A stretch of DNA of 64,000 nt from IMG/VR virus record IMGVR_UViG_3300047472_000191, positions 60,940 through 124,939 of that record; one strand, given 5' to 3'. Shown here piece by piece: positions 17,701 to 61,594 of this stretch. Every line of letters begins with the position of its first letter. The stretch's first letter is position 1. The notes below the pieces were generated by a model that had not been told where the DNA came from, searched no databases, and was given only the letters and a program-made list of their open reading frames with translations. The DNA is from a virus. A program made the position numbers and the translations under genes.

Positions 17701-19366
17701 CCTGGCCGGGACTGTCAGCAAGGGCCTGGGCGTACTCAAGGACGCCGTCCTGGGGGCTGTCGGGGTCGTGGTTAACCCGCTTCTGAACGCCGCCGAGAAG
17801 ACCGTCGACAAGCTCATCCCAGCCAACGGCGGCTGGGAAAACCTGGCCAACGGAACGTTGAAGCAGCCGATCGAATGGATCAAGGGCTTCATCAACAAGG
17901 AAGACAAGAAGGCCCAATCCGTCGGCGGCGTCATCCCGGCCGGACAGCACCTCGCGATCATCGACGCAGCCCTGAAGGCTGCGGGAGCCCCTCCGCCCGG
18001 AACTAAGGAGCAGTGGGAAGCCGGGATGAACACGCTGATTCAGCGTGAGTCCGGGTGGAACGCCTCCGCCATCAACAACTGGGACTCCAACGCGAAGGCC
18101 GGGCACCCCTCGCAGGGTCTGACGCAGACGATCCCGTCCACGTTCAACGCCTACGTTCCGCCAGCGCTGCGGAGCCTGGGCATCCTCAACCCGATTGCCA
18201 ACGTCGCGGCCTCCGTCCGCTACATCAAGTCCGTGTACGGCGGCATCCAGAACGTTCAGCAGGCCAACGCCAACAAGGCCCCCAAGGGCTACTGGACCGG
18301 TACCTCTGGGGCCGCTCCGGGTATGGCCTGGGTCGGTGAGCGCGGTCCCGAGCTGATCGACTTCCACGGCGGGGAGACGGTCTACAACAACGGCGACTCG
18401 ATGCGCATGCTGCGTTCCGGGCTGCTCGGGGGCCTGCACGGCTACGCCTCCGGTACCGCGAAGCAGCGGTCCACCGTGCGCCGGACTTACCACGAACTGG
18501 ACAGCGACACGGCCCGGCGCAACGCCGCACAGAAGGCCTACAACGCGGCGCACACGAAGTACCTGAACGCGACCACGGCCAAGGAGCAGCAGGCCGCGCG
18601 CAAGGAGATGGACAAGTACCAGAAGCGGATCGACAACGCGAACAAGGAGATCGCGGCCGACAACAAGTTGATCAAGCTGCACGACAAGAAGTACAAGGCC
18701 GCCTCGGATGCCGTCCGCCGGGAGCGGGCCGATGCTGCGGCTCTGGCGGCTGCTCGCAAGAAGAAGCGGGACGCACAGATCTCTGCGGCCCGGACGGCGG
18801 CGCAGAACTTCATCAACAACGCGAAGGCCAAGATCGACGCGAAGCTCCAGGTGGCGACCGATGCCCGCAACGGGTATTACGACGCGGCGAAGCAGAGCGG
18901 ACAGCTGACCAACCTGACGGGCAACCGGGCGGCCGGGTTCACCCAGCAGCTTCAGGCGAAAATCACTGCAATCAAGAACTTCCAGGCAAACCTGCACAAG
19001 CTGGCTACTCTCGGCCTCTCGCAGGGGGTTATCCAGCAGATCGCGGCCATGGGGGCGGACCAGGGCGGGGCGCTGGCTCAGTCGCTTGCCCGGACGACGA
19101 CGGCGGCCGATGCGAAGGGTCTCAACGCGAAGTACGCGGAGCTGGACAAGGTGGCAGGGCAGTACGCGGATTCGGCTGCGAATGACGGGTACGGTCTGAG
19201 TTCCCTAAAGGCCCAGTCAGCAGTTCTTTCCAAGACGAAGATTACGGTAACGGCGCCGAATACGATCATGGTTACTATTGACGGAAAGACCTTCAAGGCC
19301 CACACCGAAAAGGTTGTTGAATCGAAGGTGACCGAGATCGTGGACAAGGCTGGAAAGAAGAAGTGA
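14708..19366 (+). CDS. Tape measure protein with lytic transglycosylase domain
   Basis: 1552 aa, Trp-periodic repeats, IQRESGWNASAINNWDSN..SQGLTQTIPSTF. Confidence 0.92.
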   Translation: MSGTYSAGDIEASLKLDRSEFNRELTQAKRDAEDFQKQTYKPRVSLDDTEAKTKIQALKDELQSLHNITVSAALSGFDSASTHLAALQAQADHLNGMVITIYADVDTTAAAASLTALRAAASDNITIHADVDTRVAAASLARLRAAAADPINIPTGGGDPGGPAPRPRPGVPDGDDERNRKLKDPFKIPGALFSLPGLIASVLPQLPALTTLLGGATAAVVSFGVAAGGALGVYGAATMGAVKQATAHKKAVESTGKALEAAQARLAGTTAGTAAYTNALKAVTEAEKAHKEALKDLTPAEKQFTDSLNGVQTAWQSFIKSTEVYTLKPVATVLDGAKAALPQLIPLVKDLAPAFQSVAVAMKNWLSGDGLHRFVYFLRTTGVPIVLHMIAGFRTFMAAGGALMRAFGPIAVKMSEYFETLGKKSEAWAQGGGVLRFRDHFFEAWHQLKPIFSELITLVGHIWEILQGTGSPNANALVGVLHGLNTAIGNLQPAAVKSLGEIFQSISDVAIQLAPVIGITSKAIVDIINVLPPGTIRAIADAMIAWKLAVLGWNAAIAAWAFLTSIIAGLTLAWRTLSFVFAASPIGVIVTGLILLVGIIVLIATKTTWFQTLWKYTWEGIKIAAHAVWVNVLQPTFHGIWVGLQEIGKWGVWLWNNALKPAWNGIASGASWLWGYLKPVLVGIGNAFMLVGKVIWIFWSTYAKVVFIIFEAAIKALWLYVLKPVFGWIAAGWHALGTGVMWVWHHLLKPAWDLVVAGAIYVWNHGVKPAIGWITAGWHAVGDGVMWVWRHLLKPAWDMVSDGATKLWKNYISPVFNGIKNTISDKWDWIKAHVFSPMGDFFTKKIPGWADTMKGKLVTAFDTAWKGIQKVWDNVKKAIGSPIYLVAKYVWNDAIYGIMDKISGFVHQKNPLGKIPLDNIPHFAAGGPVRGGTPGKDSVLSMLMPDEHVLTREDVAAMGGQHAVARFRSALHGGAPVQGANNTGHFGIGGWIGDAGSALAGTVSKGLGVLKDAVLGAVGVVVNPLLNAAEKTVDKLIPANGGWENLANGTLKQPIEWIKGFINKEDKKAQSVGGVIPAGQHLAIIDAALKAAGAPPPGTKEQWEAGMNTLIQRESGWNASAINNWDSNAKAGHPSQGLTQTIPSTFNAYVPPALRSLGILNPIANVAASVRYIKSVYGGIQNVQQANANKAPKGYWTGTSGAAPGMAWVGERGPELIDFHGGETVYNNGDSMRMLRSGLLGGLHGYASGTAKQRSTVRRTYHELDSDTARRNAAQKAYNAAHTKYLNATTAKEQQAARKEMDKYQKRIDNANKEIAADNKLIKLHDKKYKAASDAVRRERADAAALAAARKKKRDAQISAARTAAQNFINNAKAKIDAKLQVATDARNGYYDAAKQSGQLTNLTGNRAAGFTQQLQAKITAIKNFQANLHKLATLGLSQGVIQQIAAMGADQGGALAQSLARTTTAADAKGLNAKYAELDKVAGQYADSAANDGYGLSSLKAQSAVLSKTKITVTAPNTIMVTIDGKTFKAHTEKVVESKVTEIVDKAGKKK

Positions 19367-25345: not shown

Positions 25346-25624
25346 ATGACGGAATACACACGACGCTACCCAAGCGGTTCGTCGGACTTCTATCCGAACG
25401 GCACCACTCTTCAGGTCAGCTACGTCGTTGCGGGTACCGACGGTTCTTCTATCGAAGGCACACTCGACACGCACGGGCTTCTCACAGAGGACCAGATAGA
25501 CGAACTCGCCTTCGCCATTCAGACCGCGTGTTCCGGTCTTCCCTGGCTGTCGACATCCTTCGTTACGGTCCTGGAGGACGGCCGCCGGGCATTTTCTGTC
25601 TCTCCGGTAACACCTCCACAATAG
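25346..25624 (+). CDS. Hypothetical protein (possible fibre chaperone)
   Basis: ORF with RBS after the fibre genes. Confidence 0.55.
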   Translation: MTEYTRRYPSGSSDFYPNGTTLQVSYVVAGTDGSSIEGTLDTHGLLTEDQIDELAFAIQTACSGLPWLSTSFVTVLEDGRRAFSVSPVTPPQ

Positions 25625-25696
25625 GGACGTTCTAACGAAATAGCCTCCCTTGGTACGATCCAAAGAGGCTAATTCTGGTTCCCGAGGGGCAATTCA

Positions 25697-26089
25697 ATGA
25701 GCGTTCCGTTAGACACCCTCATAACCACGGGTGCAGTGGTCTTCGGGAGCTTATCGACCTACGCAGGGACGCGGTACATGGGTCGGAATACGAACGCCAC
25801 CGAAAACCGCAAGGTAAAGCTCAGTGAGTTCGAGACGTTCAAAGAGGCGTACTACGAGCAGATCGCTGAGTTCAAGGAACGCTACGCGACTCAAGAAGCG
25901 AAGATGAACAAGGTGGAACGTCTGCTTCGCCTGGCTCTCAAGCACATCCGGGACCTGCGCACCGACATGCGGCAGCACGACGTCATTCCGTCCCACGGGA
26001 CGCCGTCCGAGCTGGAGAGCCTGCTGTGGACTCTCACGGATGAGGACGATGCGGAGGTCACCGCGTCGCACCCCGGATCGGGGGAGTGA
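25697..26089 (+). CDS. Membrane protein with coiled coil (lysis cassette)
   Basis: N-terminal hydrophobic helix followed by a coiled coil. Confidence 0.65.
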   Translation: MSVPLDTLITTGAVVFGSLSTYAGTRYMGRNTNATENRKVKLSEFETFKEAYYEQIAEFKERYATQEAKMNKVERLLRLALKHIRDLRTDMRQHDVIPSHGTPSELESLLWTLTDEDDAEVTASHPGSGE

Positions 26090-26652
26090 TGCGCGTTCCC
26101 CGGGCCCAGCTCCGTCAGGCCCTGATAGCAGCGGGCGCACAGAGCGGGACATGGGCACAGCCCGGAACGGCCGAGACTCTGGCAGCTGTGGCCCTCGCCG
26201 CGTCGGGGGTTCAAGGGGAAGCGGACTGCGATACGACGGACGGCCTGCGAGTCACCGTCTTCCAGATCGAGACGCGTCCCGCAGACACCGGACGGCGTAC
26301 CCCGCGAGATCGGGAGTGGCTCACCGACGGCCTCTCCAACGCGTGCTTGGCGGCCGTAGCGCTCACGCACATGAACGGGCTGAAGATGTGGCCCGAGTAC
26401 ACGTCCGGCGCCTACCGGCGCTACCTCCCGGAGGCGCATCCCCCGTCCATACAGCGGCCTGAGGACGACGTTCCGTACCAGGAGGCCCCCGTGTTCCCCG
26501 GCGTCCCGCTACGGCTCCTGATGCGCGCCTGCGGATGGATCGCCCCGTCCAACGTAGACGCCGACCGGATCGCCGGGATCAACGGCTTTCCCTCCGCCGC
26601 AGACGTTCCCGCAGGGCACGTTGTGCGGATCCCCGTACAGCGGGGCTGGTAA
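26089..26652 (+). CDS. Transglycosylase-like protein with LysM-like tail, apparently lacking the catalytic Glu
   Basis: AVALAASG..FQI..NA..W..YTSGAYRRYL, and IAGING..VPAGHVVRIP. Confidence 0.6.
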   Translation: MRVPRAQLRQALIAAGAQSGTWAQPGTAETLAAVALAASGVQGEADCDTTDGLRVTVFQIETRPADTGRRTPRDREWLTDGLSNACLAAVALTHMNGLKMWPEYTSGAYRRYLPEAHPPSIQRPEDDVPYQEAPVFPGVPLRLLMRACGWIAPSNVDADRIAGINGFPSAADVPAGHVVRIPVQRGW

Positions 26653-26688
26653 TCGGCCCCGTGCTGAAAACCGAGTGAGAGGACTCTC

Positions 26689-26907
26689 GTGAACAAGTTC
26701 CTGAATCGTGCCTTCCTGAAGGACGTTGCGGACCGCACCGTCTCCACCTACGTACAGGCGTTCGTGGGTCTGGAACTGTCCGACATGACCAACCTGACGT
26801 CCATCGGCGCCACCAAGGCCGTTGCGATCGCCGCGCTGCCTGCGGCGTTAGCCGTGCTCAAGGCCGCGCTCAAGGGCGCCGCCAAGCAGGACACCGCTGG
26901 CGTCTGA
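26689..26907 (+). CDS. Holin (r1t-like)
   Basis: FLKDVADRTVSTYVQAF plus hydrophobic helices. Confidence 0.8.
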   Translation: MNKFLNRAFLKDVADRTVSTYVQAFVGLELSDMTNLTSIGATKAVAIAALPAALAVLKAALKGAAKQDTAGV

Positions 26908-27002
26908 CCTGCTGAGAAGGGGGCGGCGGTTCTCTGGAGCTGCCGCCCTCCCCGCTATATGATCAGCCTTGGATGCAGGACTTCCAGCGGAGGTACATAA
27001 GC

Positions 27003-27191
27003 GTGACCGCTATGCAACACACGGCGCAGGACCGGTGCGACCGGTGCCGGGCGCAGGGCTACACCACGTGGGACATCGCGGGTAAGTCGCTTACGTTCTG
27101 CGGGCACCACACCAACGCTTACGGGGACGTCCTGACCCAACGGGGCTACACCCTCCGCGTGGACGACACCATCGCCCTTAACAGCAGGTAA
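27003..27191 (+). CDS. Small Zn-binding protein
   Basis: DRCDRC...LTFCGHH. Confidence 0.7.
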   Translation: MTAMQHTAQDRCDRCRAQGYTTWDIAGKSLTFCGHHTNAYGDVLTQRGYTLRVDDTIALNSR

Positions 27192-27473
27192 TAGGGCCAC
27201 ATCCGTCTAAACTGCTAAGGTAGATACCGATCACCCCATGGTCTTCCGCCGGAAACTCTGGCGGACGCACGAAAGGTCAGGTGATTGCCCCTCATGACGG
27301 ACAGCATCAAGAACCAGCAGCCCGATATGACGGAAACGTCCTGACCTAGGAGTGTGATCCGACATCTCCCTGGCGGCCGGTCTGAAATACCCGGCCGTCT
27401 CGGAGAGGGATCAACCCGACGAGCCCCGGCAAACCCTGCCGGGGCTCCCGTATACCCCGAGAAGGAGAGAACT

Positions 27474-29018
27474 GTGACCGCGCTACTTGAGGCGCCCGTC
27501 AAGCCGCCTCTGCGGCCGTATCAGGCGGCAGGCGTCCAGTTCCTCCGGGACCACCCCCGCGCGTATTTGGCGGACGATCCTGGGCTCGGAAAAAGTCGAC
27601 AATTGCTGGAAGCGTCCGTGGGCAAGACCCTGATTCTCGCCCCCGCCATGATCCTGGACTCCGGTACCTGGCGGAACGAGGTCAACCGGTGGGCCGACGA
27701 CCCCAGCCGGTTCACGTACGTCCCCTACACGTCTCTGTGCCACCGGGAGACCACCCCCGGAGCCTTCCTGTACGAGCGGATCGCCAAGCACGACACAGCC
27801 GTGATCACCGAAGATCAGGTACTAGACGAGAACGGCAAGCTGCTACAGGGCTTCAAGCCCATTCTGACTGCCAAGGGGGAGCACAAGCGGCAGCCCTCCC
27901 GGTCCAAGGTCGTCCCGATACCGCGTCCCGAGTACAACCAGCACTGGGACACGATCATCTGCGACGAAGCCCAGCTGCTCAAAGGCCGCAAAACCACCTG
28001 GGTCGACGCCCTCAAGATCCTGTCCCGGAACGCGGACCGGCTGTGGATGGCCTCCGGTACACCGATCTCCAACTTCGCCCCCGAGCTGTTCGCCCCGCTG
28101 CAACTGCTGTACCCGGAACTGAGCGGCAAGGGGCAGAAGCTCGGATCGTTCTGGCGGTGGGCCGGGACGTGGTTCCACATCACAGAGTCCCAGTTCCGAG
28201 AGCACGAGAAGATCATCGGAGATCTTCTGCACTGCTACCCGGAGTGCCTCGACCAGCCCGCCTGGGACCCGTGCGAGCACTACGAGCGGTTCTTCAAGCA
28301 GAACCTCGGAGACCGGTACATACAGAGGCTGCGGGACGACGTACTGCCGGACCTTCCCCCGCTGGAGATGCAGACCGTACTCACCCCGATGACCAAGAGG
28401 CAGGGTGTGGAGTACCGGAAGATGAAGAAGGACTCGCTGGCCTACGCTCTGGACGGCAACATGATGGTCGCCTGGTCCAAGGGCGCCGCGCACGTGAAGC
28501 TGGACAAGATGGCAACCGGTCTGGGTCTCTTCACCGGGGGTATCGAGGAGTCCGGCAAGCTGGACCAGCTGCGGTACGACCTCAGCGAGCGGGTGTATCC
28601 CACACTGGTGGTCGCGCACTATCAGGACACCGTCACCGCGTGCGCGGAGGTAGCCAGGTCGCTCGGTAAGAAGGCGGAGCAGATCGACGGCCGGACCAGC
28701 AAGGGGGACCGGCTGCGGTTCGTGGAAGCCTTCCAGGCTGGCAAGCTGGACGTGCTGGTCGGGTCTCTGGAGACGATCTCGGAGGGTCTGACGCTCACGG
28801 CCGCTGACTTGATCATTTTCGTTGAGCACTCCTGGAAGCCGTCCCGGAATCAGCAGGCGCTCCGCCGGGTGCACCGGCTGGGGCAGACGCGCCCGGTCAC
28901 GGCCTACGACTACGTCACGCCGAAGAGCGTGGATGAGGGCAAGCGGGAGCTGTTGGCTACGAAGCAGGATCGGGCGATGAGGGCTTTGACCTGGGGGGTT
29001 GTTCGAGACCTCCTTTAG
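27474..29018 (+). CDS. SNF2-family helicase
   Basis: LRPYQ, DDPGLGKS, CDEAQ, SGTP, EGLTL, QALRRVHRLGQ. Confidence 0.92.
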   Translation: MTALLEAPVKPPLRPYQAAGVQFLRDHPRAYLADDPGLGKSRQLLEASVGKTLILAPAMILDSGTWRNEVNRWADDPSRFTYVPYTSLCHRETTPGAFLYERIAKHDTAVITEDQVLDENGKLLQGFKPILTAKGEHKRQPSRSKVVPIPRPEYNQHWDTIICDEAQLLKGRKTTWVDALKILSRNADRLWMASGTPISNFAPELFAPLQLLYPELSGKGQKLGSFWRWAGTWFHITESQFREHEKIIGDLLHCYPECLDQPAWDPCEHYERFFKQNLGDRYIQRLRDDVLPDLPPLEMQTVLTPMTKRQGVEYRKMKKDSLAYALDGNMMVAWSKGAAHVKLDKMATGLGLFTGGIEESGKLDQLRYDLSERVYPTLVVAHYQDTVTACAEVARSLGKKAEQIDGRTSKGDRLRFVEAFQAGKLDVLVGSLETISEGLTLTAADLIIFVEHSWKPSRNQQALRRVHRLGQTRPVTAYDYVTPKSVDEGKRELLATKQDRAMRALTWGVVRDLL

Positions 29019-37377: not shown

Positions 37378-39396
37378 ATGCAGACCGTAGAGACCCTCCC
37401 GGCCACCTTCCGCGTTCCCCGCGTCCACATCCTCCCCTCACAGCTTCCTGACGGCCTGTACACCCCCGTCGCCTGGGACCTGGAAACCAGTGCCCTGTAT
37501 TTCGACGAAGGCGGCATCGCCACAGTCTCTGTCGCATGGTTCGAAGACAACATTGAGGACGCTGACCACATCCGCACCGCCGCCTTCCCGTTCGCGCAAG
37601 GAGAAGAGGGCAAGCCGGACTGGAGCGGTCAAGAGGTTCTGTTCGGCAGCGCCGAGGAAATCAACCTCCCGCTGGAGGAGTGGAAGGCGCTCACCGCGTG
37701 GCTCAGCAAACAGCGGCTCATCGCCCACAACGCCCAGTTCGACACGAGCATGATGACGGGCGGCGTCATGACCTACCGGTGGGGCAACGGATACGGCGTC
37801 GACCTGTCCGAACAGCAGTACTGGGACACCATGTTGGCGAACTACATGCTGTGGCCCCGACACCCCCTCGGCCTCAAAGAGACTGCGGAGCGGCTGTGGC
37901 CCGGGGAAGGCCAGAAGGACTCTCAGGAGCGGCTCAAGCAGCACCTGAAGAACCAGAAAAAGAAGCGCGGCAACAAGGGCGGTGTCCGCTACGACCTGGC
38001 GAACTGGGAGGTCATGGAGGATTACGCCGACGACGACGCCTATAAGTGCCTGCGGATCTACCTCGTACAGAAGAAAGCGTTCAAGGCCCCCGACCACCCG
38101 CAGTACCAGCCCTTCAAGGCCGTCCAGTTGCCCGTCCTGCGGCTCCTCGTAGAGCAAGAGAAGCGGGGCATGCCCTACGCCGTGGAAGCCTCCCGTGCAG
38201 CCGCTCAACGCATCGAACCGGCCAAGCAGAAGCTAGCCAGCCAGTTGCCGTTCCTCCCCACCGGAGACCACGCCAAAAACTACTTCTACGGCGACCCGGA
38301 CCAGACCAACATCCGGGGCCACAAGCCCCTGGGACTGTCCCCCGCCTACCGCAGCCCGAAGACGGGGGAGCCCTCCCTCAACTCCGAGGCGCTCCGGGAA
38401 CTGGCAGAGCAGGAAGTCCCGTGGGCGAAAGAGTGGCAGACGTACACCCTGCTGGACCGCGCCCAGTCCATGTACTACAACGGGTGGGCCGACAAGTGCG
38501 GGCCGGACAACCGGATCCGCGCCCGGATCCGGCAGGTCGGCACCGTATCCACCCGGTTCAGCATCGAACGCGCCAACCTCCAGGCCATCCCCCACGGACG
38601 CAAGCTGGAAGGCCTCGCATTCGTCGGCTTGAGCGACCTGCCCACCCCGCGCGCACTGATCCGGCAGCAGGTAGAAGACACGATGCCCGGCTGGGTCCTC
38701 ATGGAGTACGACCTGTCGCAGGCCGAACTTCGCCTCGGGGCCCTGCTGTCCAACTGCAAGAAGATGCTCACCGCGTACTTCGATGACGTCGACCTGCACA
38801 CGTTCACCGCTGAGCAGCTCGGGACGCCCCGACAGGTCGGCAAGGTGGCGAACCTGTCCCTGGAGTACGGTGCCGGACCGACGACGCTCGGGAACATGAT
38901 GGTCAAGATGACCGGTGGCAAGGTCAAGATGCAGCCCTGGGAGCTGAAGGAAGTCCACGCGGGCTTCCACCGGGCGTACCCGGAGCTGAACCAGGCCATC
39001 GAGCGGTGGGACCACTTCGCCCGCCGCAACAAGTTCGTTCCGCTGATCGGCGGCCAGAACCGGTATATCCGTTTTGGTGAAGATACCCGCTTGGCCTGGA
39101 ATCAGCATGTGCAGGGCAGTTTGGGTCAGTACATGCTGCACTGGCTGCTGGAAATCGAAGGCATCGGCCACCAGCTGGGCGTGCACAAGCGGGCCCAACA
39201 GGACGGCATTGGCGGGGCCGGACTGCTGATGGAGGTCCACGACTCGGCGATCAACCTGATCCCGGTGGACCTGGAAGAAGAGTTCTCCCACCTGGTCAAG
39301 AAGGCAGGCGTGGACCTGTGGCGGGACTACTTCGGATACATCAACGGAGGCGTCCCCATGAAGGTGGACGGCAAACCGTTCGCAGAGGGAGAATGA
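37378..39396 (+). CDS. polA: Family A DNA polymerase with 3'-5' exonuclease
   Basis: DLETS, HNAQFD, YADDD; DLSQAELR, RQVGKVANLSLEYG, EVHDS. Confidence 0.93.
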   Translation: MQTVETLPATFRVPRVHILPSQLPDGLYTPVAWDLETSALYFDEGGIATVSVAWFEDNIEDADHIRTAAFPFAQGEEGKPDWSGQEVLFGSAEEINLPLEEWKALTAWLSKQRLIAHNAQFDTSMMTGGVMTYRWGNGYGVDLSEQQYWDTMLANYMLWPRHPLGLKETAERLWPGEGQKDSQERLKQHLKNQKKKRGNKGGVRYDLANWEVMEDYADDDAYKCLRIYLVQKKAFKAPDHPQYQPFKAVQLPVLRLLVEQEKRGMPYAVEASRAAAQRIEPAKQKLASQLPFLPTGDHAKNYFYGDPDQTNIRGHKPLGLSPAYRSPKTGEPSLNSEALRELAEQEVPWAKEWQTYTLLDRAQSMYYNGWADKCGPDNRIRARIRQVGTVSTRFSIERANLQAIPHGRKLEGLAFVGLSDLPTPRALIRQQVEDTMPGWVLMEYDLSQAELRLGALLSNCKKMLTAYFDDVDLHTFTAEQLGTPRQVGKVANLSLEYGAGPTTLGNMMVKMTGGKVKMQPWELKEVHAGFHRAYPELNQAIERWDHFARRNKFVPLIGGQNRYIRFGEDTRLAWNQHVQGSLGQYMLHWLLEIEGIGHQLGVHKRAQQDGIGGAGLLMEVHDSAINLIPVDLEEEFSHLVKKAGVDLWRDYFGYINGGVPMKVDGKPFAEGE

Positions 39397-39400: not shown

Positions 39401-39970
39401 ATGAGCCCACGGTTAGGTAGCAGCGACGAACCGCAGCGGGGACGTCCCAGCCGGGAACAGGTGGTAGCCCGCACCCAGGCGATGCAGCTACGGCGCCGCA
39501 TCCTGGACGAAGGCTCCTTTGGTGGTGGCTTCGATGTCCCCGGCGATATCACGCCGACAGAGGCCGCCATTGAGGCGTTCAGGCGGTCTCTGGCCATGGT
39601 CCGCTGGATCGAGTCCCAGATGGCACAGTGGGCCCCGAACCTGCTGCCGTTGACGGACGCCAACTACGACGATAAGGGCGCCTTGCAGGTCATGCCCTCC
39701 CATGAGGCGGCGTGGCTGGACCTGTGGATGCAGGAACGCAAAGAGCTGCGGGAAGCCATCAAGTTGTGTCACACGATCGGCGTTGAGGAACGGCAACTCG
39801 CCTTGCAGGAACAGCAGGCTGACGCCATGTTCAGCATCCTGGAACGGATGATCGACGCTCTCGGACTGTCCGAGGACCAGCGACGCCGGGTCCCGGAGTT
39901 GATGCCGGAGATCATCCGCACGGTCGCAATGCCTTCGTTCGGCGGAACGGTCCACACGCCCCAGCTGTAA
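39401..39970 (+). CDS. Helical protein resembling actinophage small terminase subunits
   Basis: WMQERKEL..LCHTIGVEERQLAL pattern, recalled from putative TerS proteins and unverified. Confidence 0.5.
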   Translation: MSPRLGSSDEPQRGRPSREQVVARTQAMQLRRRILDEGSFGGGFDVPGDITPTEAAIEAFRRSLAMVRWIESQMAQWAPNLLPLTDANYDDKGALQVMPSHEAAWLDLWMQERKELREAIKLCHTIGVEERQLALQEQQADAMFSILERMIDALGLSEDQRRRVPELMPEIIRTVAMPSFGGTVHTPQL

Positions 39971-40112
39971 CCGCTAGGGTAGATGCAGCGCATGACCAGC
40001 GCGGTCCCGCCAAGCTGCTTAGGCGGCGTCCACGGTCGGATCAAAGGTGCAAACGCCCGCTCCCTTCCCAAGACCTGGGGGAGCGGGCGTTCTGCTGTCT
40101 CCGGACGCACAA

Positions 40113-40510
40113 GAGCCCCCGCTCTCACTAGGAGAGCGGGGGCTCAAGGCTGTGTGTTCCCGGGAGCCTCTGCCCCGCTTCGCTGATAGGCCCCTGAGCA
40201 GGCCGTCGAATGCGGGAGGGACTGCGGTTACCCGCGCCCGGCTTGATCCCGGCGAACACTGCGGTACAGCCTAGCCGAAGCCAGGTCACCCCTGTACCGC
40301 ATACCTTCCCGGTCAGACAGCTCGTGTGGCTGGGAAGGAGCTGAAACCCGCTCGGCTATTACGCCGACTGTTCTCGGGGGCCAAGGTTTCCCAGGGCAGA
40401 CGAGCGGGTTACCCCAGCAAGGTGCACTCGGAGGCCAGGGCCGCCGCATGCTGGGCTTGTTGCAGGCCTCCCCGGCAACCAATGTCCGGTCCTGGCCTGC
40501 GGGTGCCAAC
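40113..40510. ncRNA. Candidate large structured noncoding RNA (strand uncertain)
   Basis: At least 8 helices and 2 possible pseudoknots; no credible ORF; bounded by a perfect 14-bp hairpin at 40113-40145. Confidence 0.55.
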
Positions 40511-40561
40511 TCTAGCATCAAACGAGGAGGAGTCCTAGCACTTCCCTGCTAGGGTAGATCT

Positions 40562-40762
40562 ATGACGAAGCGACCGATCATCCGCTGGGAACGCAAGACC
40601 CGTCCCGGCAGCATCTACGGCCCGTTCACGGTATTCCGGGCCAGCAAGACCGGCGGCCCTCTGCTCAAGGAGGACGCCCACGGCATCAAGGACGTCAACG
40701 GGTTCATGATCCAAACAAAGGCCCATCGGGTCACTGTGGAGTTCCGGCGCCGGGGCAACTAG
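40562..40762 (+). CDS. Hypothetical basic protein, probably leaderless
   Basis: ATG 6 nt after the TAGGGT -10 box. Confidence 0.6.
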   Translation: MTKRPIIRWERKTRPGSIYGPFTVFRASKTGGPLLKEDAHGIKDVNGFMIQTKAHRVTVEFRRRGN

Positions 40763-40844
40763 CACATTGGGGAGGGTTGACTCTCCTCCCCAATGTGCTA
40801 GGGTAGATACATCAAGTCCCGGACACCGCCCCGAGGAGACCGCC

Positions 40845-42440: not shown

Positions 42441-42766
42441 TGGGGGCCTGGTTGCACCCTGCGATGTCGTCGGGACGTCTGGAGGGGATCCGGTCGTGGG
42501 CGCTGCGGTCGGCGGAGCAGTCCCGGGAGTTCGGGGAGCCGGAGGCGGTGTGGTCCGGCTACCTGGATGCGGCGGACCGGGCGGCGGATTTGCTGGACCA
42601 ACGGGCATATTGCGGGCATACATACCGGTATGTAGGTTGTGCGTCGTTGCGAATGCGAGCGTCTGAAGAGGATCGCAAATCGAGGGACAACTGTTTTTTC
42701 CCTTTGTGCTTAATTTCGGCCAGGAAATTTCGGCCGGGTCATATCCGGTTTCATTTCGACAAATAG
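42440..42766 (+). CDS. Hypothetical protein (3' end doubtful)
   Basis: Coupled start; AT-rich tail. Confidence 0.4.
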   Translation: MGAWLHPAMSSGRLEGIRSWALRSAEQSREFGEPEAVWSGYLDAADRAADLLDQRAYCGHTYRYVGCASLRMRASEEDRKSRDNCFFPLCLISARKFRPGHIRFHFDK

Positions 42767-42775
42767 GAGTCTGCA

Positions 42776-42958
42776 ATGCCGATTTACCCGTACAAGTGTT
42801 CGAATACCAACTGCCAGGAGACCGAGGATCTCAGGGCGCCTATGGCCGAGCGGGATGCCTTGCAGGGGAAGATGTGTCCTACCTGCGGTGATGGCACACT
42901 GCGTAGGCAGTTCACTCCCTATCACATTCTGAACGCAGGACTCGGTGACCTCCTCTGA
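42776..42958 (+). CDS. FmdB-like zinc-ribbon protein
   Basis: MPIYPYKC..C...CPTCG..LRR. Confidence 0.8.
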   Translation: MPIYPYKCSNTNCQETEDLRAPMAERDALQGKMCPTCGDGTLRRQFTPYHILNAGLGDLL

Positions 42959-43298
42959 CGCAGGAAGTCGTACAACTCTCAACGGGCAGGATTCAGTTGC
43001 GAGTTATCCCGCAGGTGTCGTATGTTTTCGGTTACGCACCAGTAGCGCAGGGTGTCCGTAAACGATAGTTGTCATGCAGCACCAATAGATCCAAGTGATA
43101 CAGTTCGCTAAGGAATAGTGTAGACACATGGGTCACTCGATTGATCAGAGGCAACCCGAGTGGCTCGAACATGGCAAAACGTTGTAAAAGTAGTACTTAT
43201 CGGACACGTGTCCCGTAGCCTAGCTAAAGGACACAGACCGATCGTTTTGGCATGCGTGCGTCATGCACGACCCACCCACACCCAGGAGACGCAAGATC

Positions 43299-56275: not shown

Positions 56276-58114
56276 ATGCCCCGGCTTAACAGCCCTTCAA
56301 CCGGTACGCCAGCAAGTACCGTTTCCTTCGGAACCATCGAGACCGGCTACTTGTCGCGCGTCAACGGGGTCCTGCACATCCAGACCATGCAGACCGTCAC
56401 CGACGCCGAGGGCAAGGAGAGCCGCCAGTCCGTACCCGTAGAGTTCGCGGACTTTGACATCCGGGCCAAGCACGTCGTCCGCGAGGCCGACGGGTTCACC
56501 TGGATCGTGGACATCGTCCCGCGCGGCTACATCGGTACCCCGCCGGAGGACCAGCTGACGTCCGCTGTGCTGGCCAACGTGCCGAAGCTCGACGCCTGGC
56601 TGGCATCCCACGGAGTCTCCTATGGTGAGCCGACCACGGGATCTGTGATGCACCGGTTCAAGCCCGGTACCCGCCTCATGCGGTACATCAAGGCGCAACG
56701 GCCCCCGCTGGCAGAGATCCGGCCGCAGACCGGCTACCACGCCGATCTAGACATGTTCCTGACAACCCGAGGCGCGATCCTCCCCGGGGAAATCGAATTC
56801 GACAACACCGTTCCGTTCCGTCCCGCAGCCATGCTCCGCCACAACACCGCCTCCCCGTTCACCTACGGGTTCGCACACCAGGGGCTGGAAGAGGTGCGGG
56901 AGGTACTGCGGGAAGTCCTCGGATTCCACGACGAGACCGCTACCGCTCTGTTCGCGTCGTGGGCGGTCATGTCGCTGATCCAGTCCGCTCTTCAGCCTGG
57001 CTACGTGGACCACTTCCCGGTGTTCGCCGTAGAGGCCCCCTCCGGTACCGGTAAGACCACCGGTGCGCTCGGGATGCTAGGAGAGATGCTCACCGGCTAC
57101 TCGATGGGCGAGTCCCAGAGCACCCATGCGGCCCTGCGGGACATGCTCGCCTCCACGTGGTCCGGCTTCGTCCACATCGACGACCTGGACGACCCGAAAA
57201 ACCTGTTCGAGATGCTACGGATGGTCACCGCGAACGGCACCCAGAACAAGAAGACCGGCCAGGGGTGGGACAAAAACGCCCAGATCCAGATGACCGGTGC
57301 CCTGTACATCACCGGGGAACACCTGGGCATGGACACCGAGAAGGCCCTCATGGACCGGGTGATCCAGATCGGTCTGCCGTCCCCGATCCACCGCAAATCC
57401 AGGCGCCCGGGACGGGAACACCTGTCACAGGCCCAGGACATGAAGGAAATCCAGCGGCGGTACCAGATGCTGGGCGGACTGTCCTCCATCTCCGCCACCG
57501 TGATCTCTGAAGTCATGATGCACGTGGAGCAGATCAGGCACCTGGTGGACACCCTGCGGGTCGCCCCGGGACGGCAGGGTGACAAGTACGCCGTCGTCCT
57601 TGCCGGTGCCCGCATGATCGACGGACTGCTGGGCGAAGAGGGTGCATGGGAGGGCGAAGGACCCACCAGCTACTACGTCAACCACTGGGTGGAACAGCAG
57701 CTGGACCAGCGGTCGTTCGAGGGGGACAACTCCCTCACCACCGAGGTGATCCCCACAGTGGGCGGACTGGGCTTGCAGACTGTGGACTCGATGGGTAAGT
57801 GCGTGGATATGTTCCGGGGCATCCCGGTGCCCTTCCCTCCCTGCGGTATCGCGGAAATCGCCGCGTTCGAAGGGGAGCGGCTGTTCATCCAGCTGACGAT
57901 CCTGGCGAACGTCTGGGAGGCCTTGAAGGGTGCCCACAACGTCAAGCAGCGGACGGAGACCCGCAAGGCTCTGGAGCAGCAGGCGAAGGCGGCTGGATTC
58001 GTGAAGACGGCCAACCCGGTACGTCTGCCGGGACGCCGGGATCTGGCGGTGCAGCGGCTGTGGGTGGCTCCCGAGAGCGTGACGGAAGCGATGCGGGAGC
58101 GGCTGGGACGGTAG
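56276..58114 (+). CDS. P-loop NTPase, putative replicative helicase (paralog B)
   Basis: EAPSGTGKTT, FVHIDD, ALMDR. Confidence 0.75.
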   Translation: MPRLNSPSTGTPASTVSFGTIETGYLSRVNGVLHIQTMQTVTDAEGKESRQSVPVEFADFDIRAKHVVREADGFTWIVDIVPRGYIGTPPEDQLTSAVLANVPKLDAWLASHGVSYGEPTTGSVMHRFKPGTRLMRYIKAQRPPLAEIRPQTGYHADLDMFLTTRGAILPGEIEFDNTVPFRPAAMLRHNTASPFTYGFAHQGLEEVREVLREVLGFHDETATALFASWAVMSLIQSALQPGYVDHFPVFAVEAPSGTGKTTGALGMLGEMLTGYSMGESQSTHAALRDMLASTWSGFVHIDDLDDPKNLFEMLRMVTANGTQNKKTGQGWDKNAQIQMTGALYITGEHLGMDTEKALMDRVIQIGLPSPIHRKSRRPGREHLSQAQDMKEIQRRYQMLGGLSSISATVISEVMMHVEQIRHLVDTLRVAPGRQGDKYAVVLAGARMIDGLLGEEGAWEGEGPTSYYVNHWVEQQLDQRSFEGDNSLTTEVIPTVGGLGLQTVDSMGKCVDMFRGIPVPFPPCGIAEIAAFEGERLFIQLTILANVWEALKGAHNVKQRTETRKALEQQAKAAGFVKTANPVRLPGRRDLAVQRLWVAPESVTEAMRERLGR

Positions 58115-58115: not shown

Positions 58116-58341
58116 GGTTACAGCCTCTGTAACCGATGGCGTAACCGGGGCTGTAACCGGTGGTGTAACCAGGGTCGAAATGATCTTGATGGTGAGAGGG
58201 CTAGTACTTACTTTTAGTGAGTGCTAGCCCTCTCACTGTTGGGGGCTGGTTACACCTCTGGATACACCTCTGGTTACACACTTTGTAACCAGAAAAAATC
58301 TCTCTGACCTGCATAAACTTCTAGTGGTTACAGTGGTTACA
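58116..58341. repeat. Iteron array around a palindrome, putative origin 2
   Basis: GTAACC at 58129, 58141, 58153 and 58165 (12-bp period); imperfect 20-bp inverted repeat at 58192-58236; TGG(T/A)TACAC x3 at 12-bp period; CTCTGACCTGCAT. Confidence 0.75.
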
Positions 58342-59150: not shown

Positions 59151-59256
59151 TACGCCGGGCGTAGCGGGGTCGTGATCCTTCGGGGTTGCGGCCCCTTCTT
59201 CGTATGTGCTAGGGTAGATACATCATCCAGGAGACACCACACCGAGGAGACTCGTC

Positions 59257-59574
59257 ATGATCCCCACCGAGCAGGTTGAGCAGACTCTGATGGACGCCGG
59301 ATTCGTCCCCTTCACCCAGCGGGGGCAGATCGGTTACGGCGGCTTCCAGGTGGTCCTGGAGGACGGCAAGACGGTGGTGACGCACGCACCGGGATTCATC
59401 GGCGCGATGCCGCCGGAGCTGAGCCGGGATCTCATCGCCAGCCGGGAGACCGTCGCCCGGCAGATCGACCGGATGGAGCGCGCACTCTCCCGAGCCGGAT
59501 ACACCGTGATCATGTTCGTGCCGGATGAGGGCCTCGACTACCGGCTGACGATCGCTCCGACGGGGAGGTGGTGA
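59257..59574 (+). CDS. Hypothetical protein, paralog of 58839
   Basis: Shared C-terminus with 58839; own promoter and RBS. Confidence 0.75.
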   Translation: MIPTEQVEQTLMDAGFVPFTQRGQIGYGGFQVVLEDGKTVVTHAPGFIGAMPPELSRDLIASRETVARQIDRMERALSRAGYTVIMFVPDEGLDYRLTIAPTGRW

Positions 59575-59792
59575 TGCAGACGGTGAAGGCGGCGCGTACC
59601 CGGCTCCGTTGGATCGCGTATCAGGTGGGCGGTCACGGTGTTGTGGAGATGCGGTACAGCCGGACGACCGGGTATGGGAGTCCTCGGCAGGAGCGGTACA
59701 CCGAGCACACCGGATCCTGCGGGGTCGTGTGGGTGCCGTGGAAGCATCCGTTCTACTTCGATGCGGACGGTACGGAGATTCCGGATCTGTGA
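59574..59792 (+). CDS. Hypothetical protein
   Basis: GGAGG RBS, coupled start. Confidence 0.55.
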   Translation: MQTVKAARTRLRWIAYQVGGHGVVEMRYSRTTGYGSPRQERYTEHTGSCGVVWVPWKHPFYFDADGTEIPDL

Positions 59793-59893
59793 TCGGGAGC
59801 AGCGGGGGTGTGGCCTACGGGTTGCATCCCCGCTTTTCCATGTGCTAGTGTAGATATATCAGAACACGGAGACACCGACCCGAGGAGATCCCG

Positions 59894-60022
59894 ATGAACC
59901 CCAAGGTCAAGAACGCCGCTGTTGCCGTAGCCGTTTCACCGCTCATGCTGGTGGGCCTGGTGGTTGTCGCGATCATCAAGGCACTTGAGGCGCTGCGGGT
60001 GATCAAGATCGACAAGCCCTGA
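59894..60022 (+). CDS. Small membrane peptide (42 aa)
   Basis: Promoter plus GAGGAG RBS; hydrophobic helix. Confidence 0.65.
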   Translation: MNPKVKNAAVAVAVSPLMLVGLVVVAIIKALEALRVIKIDKP

Positions 60023-60165
60023 TACGCCGGTTACGCATAGCCCTCGGAGAGATCCGGGGGCTATCTGCTGCGCCCAGGAACAGCGGAGCAGCGGGTGTTG
60101 CACACCGTCTAATCGATGTGCTAGGGTAGATATATCAGCAAGGGACACCACCGAGGAGACCCCAG

Positions 60166-60411
60166 ATGAACGCCGCCAAGACCGTCGCCACCGCCCTCAT
60201 CGCCGCCACCGCCATCACCGGACTCACCGCCTGCAACCCCGGCACCGAGCCCACCGGAACCGTCACCCACCGCACCGGAGGCGCTCCCATGGCCGGAAAG
60301 GGCGCCACCCTCACGGTCACCGGAAAGGACGGCAAGACGGCGGTCGTCTCCATCCCGGCCGGTGTGTACGAGAGCTGCCACGTCGGCATGCAGTACCCCA
60401 AGTGCAAGTAG
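60166..60411 (+). CDS. Small lipoprotein
   Basis: GLTAC lipobox; C..G..YPKC end. Confidence 0.75.
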   Translation: MNAAKTVATALIAATAITGLTACNPGTEPTGTVTHRTGGAPMAGKGATLTVTGKDGKTAVVSIPAGVYESCHVGMQYPKCK

Positions 60412-60595
60412 CCTTCCAGCGGTACACCAGGGCCCTCCGGGATACACCGGGGGGCCCTTTGCTGCGCCCGGACACACCCGCTGTCAGCGGGGGAGCAGCG
60501 GGGTGAAAGTCTTCTCCGGAGGGGGTTGTATCTACCCTAGTACTCGTGTAGAGTAGGAGTATCAGCAAGGGACACCGCAACCAGGGAGACCCGAA

Positions 60596-60844
60596 ATGCT
60601 CAAGTTCCTCAAGGCCGCATTCGCCACCGACGCCCAGATCACCGCCCAGATCACCGCCAAGCTGGACGCCGAGGACGCCGCCAAGAAGGCCACCGACACC
60701 CGGGGTCTCTGGGACGAGGAGCTGGGCTGCTGGATGGGTACGGCGGGCAGCACGGAGCGCTTCCTGTGGATCCTCGCCGACCAGGACCGCGACGACCGGG
60801 AGGACGCCCTGCTTGCGGAGATCCTCCGGAACCGCCAGAGCTGA
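60596..60844 (+). CDS. Hypothetical protein
   Basis: Promoter TTGTAT-N17-TAGAGT, RBS, terminator. Confidence 0.7.
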   Translation: MLKFLKAAFATDAQITAQITAKLDAEDAAKKATDTRGLWDEELGCWMGTAGSTERFLWILADQDRDDREDALLAEILRNRQS

Positions 60845-60966
60845 TCGCACCACCGAGCGCACCGAGCCCTCCGGGATACACCGGGGGGGTTTTTGTGTTG
60901 CGCGGGCGCAGCAGGGTGTGCTAGTGTAGATATATCAGCAAGGGACACCACACCGAGGAGATCCTG

Positions 60967-61179
60967 ATGAACCGCACCGCCACCGCCCGCCACATGGCCA
61001 ACGCCCACCGCGCCCTCACGGACGCCACCGAGGCCCGGGAAGCCGGACTGACCCCCCGAGTCGAAATGAACCTCCGGAGCGCCGTGGAGCAGCTGGAACT
61101 GGCCGGACACACCGGCCCCCTCTACAAGGCCACCGTGGGCGACCTGGCAGCGGTGATGTTCTCCCGCACCACGGTGTAA
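60967..61179 (+). CDS. Hypothetical protein
   Basis: Cassette architecture. Confidence 0.7.
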   Translation: MNRTATARHMANAHRALTDATEAREAGLTPRVEMNLRSAVEQLELAGHTGPLYKATVGDLAAVMFSRTTV

Positions 61180-61303
61180 CCCGCCCGACACACCGAGCCC
61201 TCGGAGAGATCCGGGGGCTTTCTGCTGCGCCCTGTTGCACACCGCGTAATCCATGTGCTAGGGTAGATACATCAAGACGGCACACCACACCGAGGAGAGC
61301 CCC

Positions 61304-61594
61304 ATGCGCTGCGGAAACGGCGATCTGACCTACGACGGCAACGGACACCTGGAGCACGTCCACTACTGCACCCAGGAAGCCGTCACCAACCGTTTCAGCA
61401 AGCGCGGCAAGACTCTCCCGTTCTGCCAGGACCACGCCTCCCGATACGACGTGTTCACGGGCAAGCTGCTACGCCGGGTCCTCGCCACATGGGAGCGCCT
61501 CGGAGATGAGTTCATGACCGACTCCGGGCACACCCGGCCGGAGCTGCGCCCCGAACACGACGGACAGCTGATGATCCCGGGGATTTTCGTCTGA
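61304..61594 (+). CDS. Hypothetical Cys/His protein
   Basis: Cassette architecture; C..C..CQDH. Confidence 0.7.
   Translation: MRCGNGDLTYDGNGHLEHVHYCTQEAVTNRFSKRGKTLPFCQDHASRYDVFTGKLLRRVLATWERLGDEFMTDSGHTRPELRPEHDGQLMIPGIFV

What the first reader, a model, noticed from the sequence alone, without database searches (positions are those of the whole stretch)
40113..40510. About 400-nt densely structured noncoding element with two possible pseudoknots
Seen helices: GTGTTC-CCGGGA-GCC/GGC-TCCCGG-GAACAC (40154-40259); TGCGGTACAG/CTGTACCGCA (40260-40301); CCTTCCCGGTCA/TGGCTGGGAAGG (40304-40338), whose loop CAGCTC can pair with the adjacent GAGCTG (H-type pseudoknot); AACCCGCTCG/CGAGCGGGTT (40345-40410); and a 20-bp stem at 40424-40506 whose interior TGCTGGG can pair with CCCAGCA at 40413. 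Strand evidence is mixed. G-U wobbles favour plus, while C(UUCG)G and GUAA tetraloops and a TGCTAGAGT -10 box at 40517-40509 favour minus. I cannot assign it to tmRNA, RNase P or a group I intron. Inference: an undescribed large phage ncRNA.
Basis: partly seen in the sequence, partly recalled or inferred. Interest (0 to 1): 0.8.

Follow-up and report, generated by a model that had tools for sequence, protein, structure and literature searches.

The report
New folded RNA gene in actinophage
The gene-free stretch is very probably a roughly 395-base folded RNA gene read from the minus strand, and its conserved end piece defines an uncatalogued RNA family that soil phages share with Streptomyces prophages, a plasmid and chromosomes; its job is unknown.

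Summary
The region folds better than shuffled controls on both strands (z -6.46 plus, -3.67 minus). No Rfam, tRNA or tmRNA match was found.

I collected 20 homologues: 7 distinct phage versions, 7 viral or proviral contigs (one identical in length and match position to Streptomyces ambofaciens plasmid pSAM1) and 6 genome hits. A 110-nt three-way-junction core (window 40150-40263, minus strand) is conserved. In the 19 sequences aligned, 17 of 29 pairs show compensatory changes and 93.8% of cells are paired (0 of 500 shuffles reach this).

The RNA strand is minus:
- GNRA loops in 19 of 19 cores and YNCG loops in 7 of 7 phage versions;
- 35 G-U against 1 A-C cell in the 25 firm core pairs;
- the window's only minus-strand copy of the phage promoter word lies at 40509-40517;
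- a terminator hairpin follows the core in all 20.

The 20-bp stem and both pseudoknots are specific to this window and are not conserved. No transcript data exist and the function is unknown. My best guess is a trans-acting binding RNA. An RNA-primed replication origin is the main rival.

The parts
40105..40503 (-). Predicted whole RNA, about 395 nt. The 5' end is inferred 6-9 nt downstream of the -10 word; the 3' end is inferred after terminator T1.
   Evidence: Inferred from the promoter word, the terminator hairpin and the same layout in 7 of 7 phage homologues. No transcript data.
40509..40517 (-). Extended -10-like promoter word TGCTAGAGT
   Evidence: TGCTAGRGT occurs 10 times in the window against 0.41 expected. 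Nine copies are on the plus strand; this is the only one on minus. All 7 phage homologues have a TANNNT hexamer 7-10 nt before the first hairpin (read). The generic sigma-70 scan found no promoter on either strand.
40462..40500 (-). 5' hairpin S1 (GCAGGCC...GGCCUGC with an inner CCGG/CCGG stem), followed by the conserved linker CAAC(A/G)A (40457-40461)
   Evidence: Present in 7 of 7 phage versions; 10 consensus pairs, 2 with compensatory change. GTTGCAGG is invariant in alignment A1.
40413..40455 (-). Hairpin X (closing stem CCCAGC/GCUGGG, inner word CCGAGUGCAC)
   Evidence: Also seen in L006, L005, L177 and L213, with changed but still complementary closing stems (read). It excludes the window-only 20-bp stem.
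40345..40410 (-). Module D: small three-way junction with a GAAA-capped hairpin and the conserved word UCUGC
   Evidence: Found in the window, L013, L006, L005, L004, L177, L211, L212 and L213, and alone with a terminator in L189. Its position relative to hairpins B and C differs in L004.
40304..40338 (-). Hairpin C with the conserved loop word GAGCUGU (complement of plus-strand 40317-40323)
   Evidence: 13 consensus pairs, 5 compensatory. The loop word is in 6 of 7 phage versions; the internal partner is in 1 of 7.
40260..40301 (-). Hairpin B with a C(UUCG)G loop and a conserved asymmetric internal loop GGUUGAR
   Evidence: 15 pairs, 8 compensatory, G-U 9 against A-C 2. The loop is YNCG in 7 of 7 phage versions.
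40150..40263 (-). Conserved 3' core: P1 with a bulged G, an AUCA bulge, P2, a GNRA-capped P3, P4 and an AGAG junction strand
   Evidence: Covariance-model hit of 112.9 bits. 19 sequences, 29 pairs, 17 with compensatory change, 93.8% of cells paired. GNRA loop in 19 of 19.
40113..40145 (-). Terminator hairpin T1: 14-bp GC-rich stem, then CUCUUGUGCGU on the minus strand
   Evidence: Read. A GC-rich hairpin follows the core within about 30 nt in 20 of 20 homologues, by eye. The strict terminator scan found none.
40054..40090 (.). Second GC-rich hairpin T2. It reads as a terminator for the plus-strand unit starting at the 39973 promoter word, and as a back-up terminator on the minus strand.
   Evidence: Read. 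Present in the window, L013, L008, L012 and L004; absent in L006 and L005.

Best explanation
SHOWN: the 590-nt gene-free gap holds a conserved, covarying RNA-type structure. It consists of five hairpin or junction modules followed by a 110-nt three-way-junction core.

STRONGLY INFERRED: it is an independent gene on the minus strand, opposite to the flanking replication genes. It starts at an extended -10 promoter (40509-40517) and ends at terminator hairpin T1 (40145-40113), giving an RNA of about 395 nt.

SHOWN: the core is the defining unit of an uncatalogued family. The family occurs in related soil phages, Streptomyces-type proviruses, plasmid pSAM1 and Streptomycetaceae chromosomes. Sometimes it appears as a bare promoter-core-terminator small RNA, so the core is probably the working part and the phage's 5' hairpins are add-on modules.

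INFERRED MECHANISM (weak): a stable RNA acting in trans, whose core is a specific binding platform for a protein or small ligand (a decoy or RNP scaffold). The sequence-invariant CCGGG/CCCGG helix, the bulged G, the AUCA bulge and the AGAG junction strand would form the binding or docking site. The GNRA loop probably docks on a helix of the same RNA. Antisense pairing is not the likely mode.

I put about 0.85 on 'real minus-strand structured RNA gene of a new family' and about 0.3 on the binding-platform mechanism.
For: Structure: z -6.46 and -3.67 against shuffles. Core covariation in 19 sequences: 17 of 29 pairs compensatory against 7.7 +/- 1.2 in shuffles, 0 of 500 shuffles reaching it. Controls with the partner slid by 1-3 columns give at most 7 such pairs and at most 59.4% paired cells, against 93.8% observed. 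Hairpins B, C and S1 also covary.

Strand:
- The P3 loop is GNRA in 19 of 19 cores (GCAA 11, GUGA 4, GUAA 3, GGGA 1).
- The hairpin B loop is YNCG in 7 of 7 phage versions.
- G-U 40 against A-C 18 cells overall. 17 of the 18 A-C cells lie in four marginal pairs, so the other 25 pairs hold 35 G-U and 1 A-C.
- In L177 the P1 helix keeps pairing through G-U only on this strand.

Transcription signals: the window's only minus-strand TGCTAGRGT lies right at the 5' edge. A TANNNT hexamer sits 7-10 nt before S1 in 7 of 7 phage versions. TAGACT- or TATAAG-type -10 words sit a few bases before the core in L214, L220 and L208. A terminator hairpin follows the core in 20 of 20.

Family: model scores of 36-117 bits for members against at most 22.6 bits for pattern-selected decoys. 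Hits in 5 of 151 Streptomycetaceae genomes and 1 of 151 class-wide genomes.

Not coding: modules are gained, lost and moved between homologues, and the two overlapping ORFs tested have no Pfam hit. All-against-all BLASTP of flanking ORFs found no neighbour shared across most loci.
Against: No RNA data of any kind exist for this locus.

The generic promoter and terminator scan found 0 sites on either strand, so the signals rest on the phage's own motif and on conservation.

Thermodynamics does not pick the minus strand. The plus strand folds better in the window, and for the core alone the sense strand has the lower energy in only 9 of 19 sequences, with modest z-scores.

The sequences are related: the model's effective sequence number is 1.56. 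Alignment A6 was fitted to a model built on this strand, which favours it.

No partner is known. DUF6233 genes lie nearby in only 3 loci, and the family is found in 1 of 5 records searched. The binding-platform idea therefore rests only on the conservation pattern.
Confidence: 0.55

Rival explanations
1. RNA-primed replication origin. The transcript would act as a pre-primer, as ColE1 RNA II does, or as the noncoding 'ori' RNA of cluster A parABS mycobacteriophages does. The phage's own Pol I would extend it.
For: The RNA sits directly after the DNA Pol I gene (37378-39396) and is read against its neighbours. [quoted passage not shown] This genome encodes a ParA-like ATPase and a tyrosine recombinase. 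pSAM1, a plasmid with prophage-like content, also carries the core.
Against: The core model does not match the Alma ori locus (best 8.9 bits, E 0.23, filters off), and BLAST finds no similarity to 50,697 phage records. The RNA ends in one or two terminators, which fits a released RNA rather than a persistent hybrid. The ParA-like genes are 58 kb (this genome) and 17 kb (pSAM1) away, and ParA is absent from 4 of 5 other records searched. The family occurs in integrated proviruses next to an integrase (L177) and as bare 80-110-nt units in chromosomes (L214, L220). Iteron-like GTAACC arrays beside a helicase gene at 58127-58279 are a more conventional origin candidate.
Confidence: 0.12
2. Base-pairing regulatory sRNA. 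The conserved free loop GAGCUGU of hairpin C, or another unpaired word, would pair with a phage or host RNA. Alternatively its palindromic AGCU centre could drive loop-loop dimerisation.
For: GAGCUGU is kept in 6 of 7 phage versions without a conserved internal partner.
Against: The complement ACAGCTC occurs 13 times in the 125-kb genome against about 8 expected from base composition, so there is no clear enrichment. Hairpin C is missing from L012 and was not seen in the Streptomyces-type members read, so it cannot be the family's shared function.
Confidence: 0.13
3. Cis-acting switch. The core would be a ligand-sensing aptamer that tunes read-through of T1 and T2, giving antisense transcription into the replication genes.
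For: The layout is a compact junction fold with conserved unpaired nucleotides, followed directly by a terminator, as in OFF-type riboswitches. The downstream genes are convergent in the window, L177 and pSAM1.
Against: No alternative anti-terminator pairing was found. There are two terminators in tandem in 5 of 7 phage versions. There is no consistent downstream gene, and in L205 the next ORF is co-directional. No Rfam riboswitch matched.
Confidence: 0.08
4. The functional RNA is on the plus strand, or the element acts as DNA (an insulator or recombination site).
For: The plus strand has the better folding z-score in the window. A-C cells (G-U on plus) occur at four marginal pairs.
Against: On the plus strand the loops would read UYNC and CGRR instead of GNRA and YNCG. 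The firm pairs hold 35 G-U against 1 A-C. On the plus strand the structure would begin just after a terminator, with no promoter in L006 and L005. In the Streptomyces copies the promoter and terminator bracket the core only in the minus sense. Compensatory changes that pass through G-U argue for RNA rather than DNA.
Confidence: 0.05

Closest known systems
Noncoding 'ori' RNA of non-RepA parABS cluster A mycobacteriophages (Alma, LadyBird, RedRock; Wetzel et al. 2020, PMC7157519)
   Same: An actinophage-borne, ORF-free region of several hundred nt, expressed against the direction of neighbouring genes. I read the abstract, sections 7, 10 and 15, and search passages.
   Different: No sequence or core-model similarity. 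Not next to parA. It ends in terminators. The family also lives in integrated proviruses and as minimal chromosomal units. A replication role is untested here.
Large orphan structured RNAs of phages and mobile elements (ROOL, GOLLD, HEARO and similar; recalled from memory, all present in Rfam)
   Same: Ornate multi-helix RNAs with GNRA loops, carried by phages and mobile elements, found by comparative analysis, function initially unknown.
   Different: No covariance-model match to any Rfam family. It is smaller. It is modular, with a short conserved core that can stand alone.
ColE1 RNA II pre-primer (as summarised in the introduction of PMC7157519)
   Same: A structured RNA of several hundred nt beside replication functions, in a system that uses a Pol I-type polymerase.
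   Different: No antisense RNA I-like partner or origin-site features were identified. The transcript is terminated. Homologues occur in non-replicative contexts.

Membership tests
Any Rfam 15 family (including tmRNA, RNase P, group I/II introns, 6S, riboswitches, ROOL/GOLLD/HEARO) | Covariance-model score at or above the family's gathering score | tested here: not met
   0 matches at gathering score over the whole window and over L177, L198-L201 and L204. In the permissive scans the best hit for the window region was 20.9 bits against a gathering score of 48 (a fungal snoRNA, E 0.03). Nothing fell on the cores of L211, L212, L214 or L220.
tRNA / tmRNA | Cloverleaf or tRNA-like domain with tag reading frame, as detected by ARAGORN | tested here: not met
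   0 genes in the window and 0 in L177 and L205-L210.
RNA-based prophage origin of cluster A mycobacteriophages | Homology to the transcribed ori region of Alma | tested here: not met
   Model R2 with filters off on Alma 25500-28500: best 8.9 bits, E 0.23. blastn of the window region and of the L177 core against the phage collection: no match.
RNA-based prophage origin of cluster A mycobacteriophages | Lies immediately upstream of parA, in the reverse direction | tested here: not met
   The ParA-like gene is at G000 42536-43060 and the RNA at G000 101089-101450, 58 kb apart. In pSAM1 they are about 17 kb apart.
RNA-based prophage origin of cluster A mycobacteriophages | [quoted passage not shown] | not testable with these tools
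   Needs a plasmid replication assay.
Independent bacterial sRNA gene (promoter, structured body, intrinsic terminator) | Own promoter upstream on the RNA strand | tested here: inconclusive
   The phage-specific word TGCTAGAGT is unique on the minus strand, and TANNNT is conserved in 7 of 7 phage versions. The generic sigma-70 scan found 0 promoters, and there are no transcription-start data.
Independent bacterial sRNA gene (promoter, structured body, intrinsic terminator) | GC-rich hairpin plus U-rich tail at the 3' end | tested here: inconclusive
   A hairpin is present in 20 of 20 by reading. U tails are weak or interrupted, which I recall as common in high-GC actinobacteria. The strict scan found 0 terminators.
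Conserved structured RNA (covariation standard) | Compensatory base changes beyond shuffled and slid controls | tested here: met
   17 of 29 pairs; 0 of 500 shuffles reach this; slid controls give at most 7 pairs.

The most novel reading that the evidence does not exclude
The 80-110-nt three-way-junction core is a new functional RNA class of Streptomyces mobile elements. It would be either a ligand- or protein-sensing aptamer or a small ribozyme, used as a portable module. The phage version would be a multi-domain assembly (S1, X, D, C, B and core) that may also self-associate through the palindromic GAGCUGU loop. It could serve, for example, as a decoy for a host defence or RNA-processing factor during infection.
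Probability: 0.15. Interest if true: 0.85.

Novelty: new variant of a known kind. Interest (0 to 1): 0.6.

Why it matters
Streptomyces and their phages have few characterised noncoding RNAs. Here a covarying RNA fold with no database match is shared by uncultured soil phages, proviruses, a phage-like plasmid of a laboratory strain and chromosomes. It is built from modules that are gained, lost and moved between versions.

Because one carrier, S. ambofaciens ATCC 23877 pSAM1, is cultivable and already has transcriptome data, the prediction (strand, ends, size) can be tested at once. The RNA can then be deleted, tagged and probed.

If the core proves to bind a host factor or a ligand, it would add a new RNA tool of mobile elements in the main antibiotic-producing genus. 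If it primes replication, it would extend RNA-based origins beyond cluster A mycobacteriophages.

Tried and rejected
Known families: Rfam at gathering and permissive thresholds and ARAGORN found nothing.

BLAST of the region against 50,697 phage records found no match. Against 72,556 plasmids it found only pSAM1.

Homologue hunts that mostly failed:
- Pattern GTTCCCGGG..ATCCCGGCGAAC in viral contigs gave 12 stretches. Ten were the known phage clade; L017 and L023 looked like coding chance hits by eye and were not model-tested.
- The same pattern in metagenome contigs gave 65 stretches. Only L059 (identical to L012) was real by BLAST. Of the 7 put to the model, the other 6 scored at most 22.1 bits.
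- In genome contigs it gave 56 stretches, none real by BLAST. The 19 put to the model scored at most 22.6 bits.
- The S1 pattern gave 4 new loci, none similar by BLAST.
- The D-module pattern gave 37 stretches. Of the new loci, one was a true family member (L177) and one carried the D module alone (L189).
- A protein-alignment search for the upstream gene returned only the same loci.

BLAST of the L177 element against 401 Actinomycetota genomes gave 44 genomes with short hits. The five I read lay in apparent reading frames, on common GC-rich words, and I rejected them as chance.

Other negative or uninformative results:
- Folding energy as a strand test was uninformative: sense lower in 9 of 19.
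- No neighbour gene is shared across most loci. DUF6233 as an obligate partner was rejected: present in 1 of 5 records.
- The loop complement ACAGCTC is not clearly enriched in the genome.
- The generic promoter and terminator scan found 0 sites.
- Sequencing runs: no RNA holder was listed.
- Earlier-findings look-ups by sequence and by relatives returned nothing.

Literature searches found no description of this RNA; that statement rests on those four searches only. Supplementary files were not seen. Table S1 and Fig S1 of PMC7157519 and S3 Fig of PMC11302927 may hold relevant RNA coordinates or pSAM1 expression.

Full report
SETTING. The window is bases 60940-124939 of a 124.9-kb IMG/VR virus contig estimated 97% complete. 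The element lies in a 590-nt gap between a plus-strand ORF (39401-39970) that directly follows a DNA polymerase I gene (37378-39396) and a small plus-strand ORF (40562-40762). The polymerase's best tblastn hits are Streptomyces phages, at about 40% identity. The phage uses a repeated promoter-like word, GCTAGGGTAGAT: 23 matches with up to 2 mismatches against 2.2 expected, 22 of them on the plus strand. Copies at 39973 and 40548 flank the gap.

OBSERVATION. Folding of 40100-40520 beats dinucleotide shuffles on both strands: plus -228.4 kcal/mol, z -6.46; minus -217.4 kcal/mol, z -3.67; 0 of 100 shuffles as good in either case. Rfam gives nothing at gathering score for the whole window. The permissive scan gives only sub-threshold noise, with the best hit a fungal snoRNA at 20.9 bits against a required 48. 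ARAGORN finds no tRNA or tmRNA. The two ORFs that overlap the element have no Pfam hit.

HOMOLOGUES IN RELATED PHAGES. Relatives of the upstream 189-aa protein led to 12 viral contigs. Ten of these carry a similar gap region, which collapses to six distinct sequences besides the window: L013, L006, L005, L008, L012 and L004. Reading them and aligning them shows a modular element. Three features are present in all: a core (GTTCCCGGG...ATCCCGGCGAAC on the plus strand), the word GTTGCAGG, and a hairpin with a 4-nt loop. Other hairpins are present, absent, inserted or placed differently; module D, for example, lies on the other side of hairpins B and C in L004. This pattern is incompatible with a conserved reading frame.

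A WIDER FAMILY. A looser pattern for the core found six more viral contigs, four of them proviruses from isolate genomes. The D-module pattern found L177. All seven scored 72.7-98.1 bits with a covariance model built from the phage clade plus L177 (model R1). DNA that had been selected only for matching my search pattern scored at most 22.6 bits.

L208 has the same length (89,658 bases) and the same match position as Streptomyces ambofaciens ATCC 23877 plasmid pSAM1. [quoted passage not shown]

A second model (R2) found the core in 5 of 151 Streptomycetaceae genomes and in 1 of 151 genomes drawn across the class. Only 25 candidates per genome were scored, so these are lower bounds. In total there are 20 members.

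The neighbours are typical of mobile elements: an integrase N-terminal domain beside L177, and a phage antirepressor beside L211. DUF6233 genes lie near L207, L213 and pSAM1. No gene accompanies the RNA consistently.

STRUCTURE OF THE CORE. On the 19-sequence alignment (L220 was found later and is not included), 29 pairs form six helices, and 93.8% of cells are standard pairs against 85.5% in shuffles. Seventeen pairs show changes on both sides, against 7.7 +/- 1.2 in shuffles, and 0 of 500 shuffles reach any of the five measures. Sliding the 3' partners by 1-3 columns drops pairing to 36-59% and compensatory pairs to 2-7.

In RNA sense the fold is as follows:
- P1, with an invariant bulged G and the nearly invariant helix CCGGG/CCCGG;
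- a 4-5-nt bulge, AUCA;
- P2;
- a three-way junction carrying P3, capped by a GNRA loop, and P4, of variable length;
- a purine-rich junction strand, AGAG in 14 of 19.

Short versions of P4 exist in L213-L215 and L220. In L214 and L220 a -10-like word lies a few bases before P1 and a terminator follows. These are minimal small RNAs of about 80-110 nt made of the core alone.

WHICH STRAND. The evidence points to the window's minus strand.
1. The P3 loop reads GNRA in 19 of 19 cores (GCAA 11, GUGA 4, GUAA 3, GGGA 1). The hairpin B loop reads YNCG in 7 of 7 phage versions (UUCG 3, UCCG 2, CUCG 1, CCCG 1). The D hairpin loop reads GAAA or GCAA. On the other strand these would be UYNC, CGRR and UUUC. 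That GNRA and UNCG loops are the classic stable RNA tetraloops is recalled knowledge.
2. In the core helices there are 40 G-U cells and 18 A-C cells. Seventeen of the A-C cells sit in four marginal pairs (the two outermost pairs of P1, the outer pair of P2 and one pair in distal P4).
3. TGCTAGRGT occurs 10 times in the window against 0.41 expected: nine copies on plus, and one on minus at 40509-40517 at the element's edge. Genome-wide there are 21 plus and 8 minus copies, and the other seven minus copies all lie in the first 46 kb. All seven phage versions have a TANNNT hexamer 7-10 nt before the first hairpin (read).
4. A GC-rich hairpin follows the core in 20 of 20 members in this sense.

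Against this, thermodynamics does not discriminate. The plus strand has the better z-score in the window, and for the core alone the sense strand has the lower energy in only 9 of 19. The generic E. coli-style scan sees no promoter or terminator on either strand. No RNA run holding this DNA was listed.

THE OTHER MODULES AND THE PSEUDOKNOTS. In RNA sense the order is S1 (40500-40462), X (40455-40413), D (40410-40345), C (40338-40304), B (40301-40260), core, then T1. S1, B and C covary, with 2 of 10, 8 of 15 and 5 of 13 pairs compensatory. X and D recur in the Streptomyces-type RNAs L177 and L213 in the same order relative to the core, so the long phage RNA and those RNAs are homologous beyond the core. 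D also occurs alone with a terminator in L189.

It is strong in the window (-32.1 kcal/mol) but poor in L006 (-18.9), and it cannot form in the four versions that lack X. The minus-sense minimum-energy fold of the full RNA uses S1 instead. 'Pseudoknot 2' is thus the conserved closing stem of X in a competing fold. For 'pseudoknot 1', the loop word GAGCUGU is conserved (6 of 7) but its partner CAGCUC is found only in the window. The conserved loop is therefore free for something else.

WHAT IT DOES. This is inferred, not shown. The core can stand alone and is the only universally shared part, so it probably carries the function. Its helices P1 and P2 are conserved in sequence, not just in pairing, and it has invariant unpaired nucleotides. 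That pattern is typical of a specific protein or ligand site, or of a tertiary docking surface. From recalled knowledge, GNRA loops such as GUAA dock on tandem C-G pairs, which the invariant CCGGG/CCCGG helix offers. I therefore favour a stable RNA acting in trans that binds a partner (a decoy or RNP scaffold), at about 0.3.

The main rival is an RNA-primed origin. There is precedent in actinophages: PMC7157519 describes a reverse-direction noncoding RNA region required for stable prophage maintenance. The locus also follows a Pol I gene, and the genome has ParA-like and recombinase genes. Against it:
- there is no similarity to the Alma ori;
- the ParA-like genes are 58 kb and 17 kb away, and are absent from 4 of 5 other carriers searched;
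- the RNA is terminated;
- members occur in integrated and minimal chromosomal contexts;
- iteron-like GTAACC arrays beside a helicase gene at 58127-58279 look like a more conventional origin (the lead came from earlier first-reader notes).

NOVELTY. There is no Rfam family (four scans), no phage-record similarity, and no description in four literature searches. Earlier findings of this scan held no look-alike. One note on another soil actinophage describes a modular RNA of about 410 nt, but I could not compare sequences. I rate this an uncatalogued RNA family of a familiar general kind: an orphan structured RNA of mobile elements.

The genome searches scored few candidates per genome. Taxon labels were not given for the genome handles.

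Noticed in passing
window 39973-40095 (+): A copy of the phage promoter word right after the stop codon of ORF 39401-39970 is followed about 80 nt later by terminator-like hairpin T2. This could be a separate plus-strand RNA of about 110 nt, convergent with the main RNA. It is conserved in L013, L012 and L004 and absent in L006 and L005.
   Followed up: no
window, about 23 sites (e.g. 4753, 29021, 40548, 40797, 59208-63748); whole genome: The promoter-like word GCTAGGGTAGAT / TGCTAGRGT is repeated far above chance. Genome-wide there are 21 plus and 8 minus copies of the 9-mer. At 40763-40808 its TGCTAG is part of the 3' arm of a long inverted repeat, forming a terminator-promoter junction.
   Followed up: partly
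L207, about 263-350 (minus strand of the locus): Directly 5' of the core lies a tRNA-like stretch with a plausible T arm (loop UUCAAUU) and acceptor 3' strand. ARAGORN calls no tRNA. It may be a tRNA-derived attachment-site remnant at the provirus edge.
   Followed up: partly
L189, about 2240-2300: A D-module look-alike followed by its own terminator hairpin, with no core nearby. Module D may be an independent RNA unit.
   Followed up: no
L177 9440-9640 and L220 1340-1440: Upstream of the core-bearing RNA, in the same direction, lies another short unit with its own -10-like word and a terminator with a U-rich tail. The two share the word GGCGGGGUAGGC, suggesting a tandem pair of small RNA genes.
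   Followed up: no
L177, L207, L208, L209; L212: A recurring upstream word, (C/T)GTCAG-N10-(T/C)A(G/T/C)(A/G)CT (for example TGTCAG..CAGACT), at varying distance before the RNA. It may be a promoter or operator specific to these elements.
   Followed up: no
window 58127-58279; 7183-7195 and 58302-58314: GTAACC/GGTTAC arrays with 12-bp period just after the 612-aa ORF 56276-58114, and an identical 13-mer at two distant sites. This is an iteron-like candidate origin, noted by earlier readers.
   Followed up: partly
G000 18328-18894 (-) and 42536-43060 (-), outside the window: The phage genome encodes a tyrosine-recombinase-like protein (36.6 bits) and a ParA-like ATPase (93.2 bits). It may therefore be temperate or plasmid-like rather than strictly lytic.
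   Followed up: no
L207 887-1768, L213 386-1135, pSAM1 27343-27678: DUF6233-domain genes lie within about 1.5 kb of the RNA in three loci, in differing orientations. The family was found in only 1 of 5 carrier records searched and not in this phage.
   Followed up: partly
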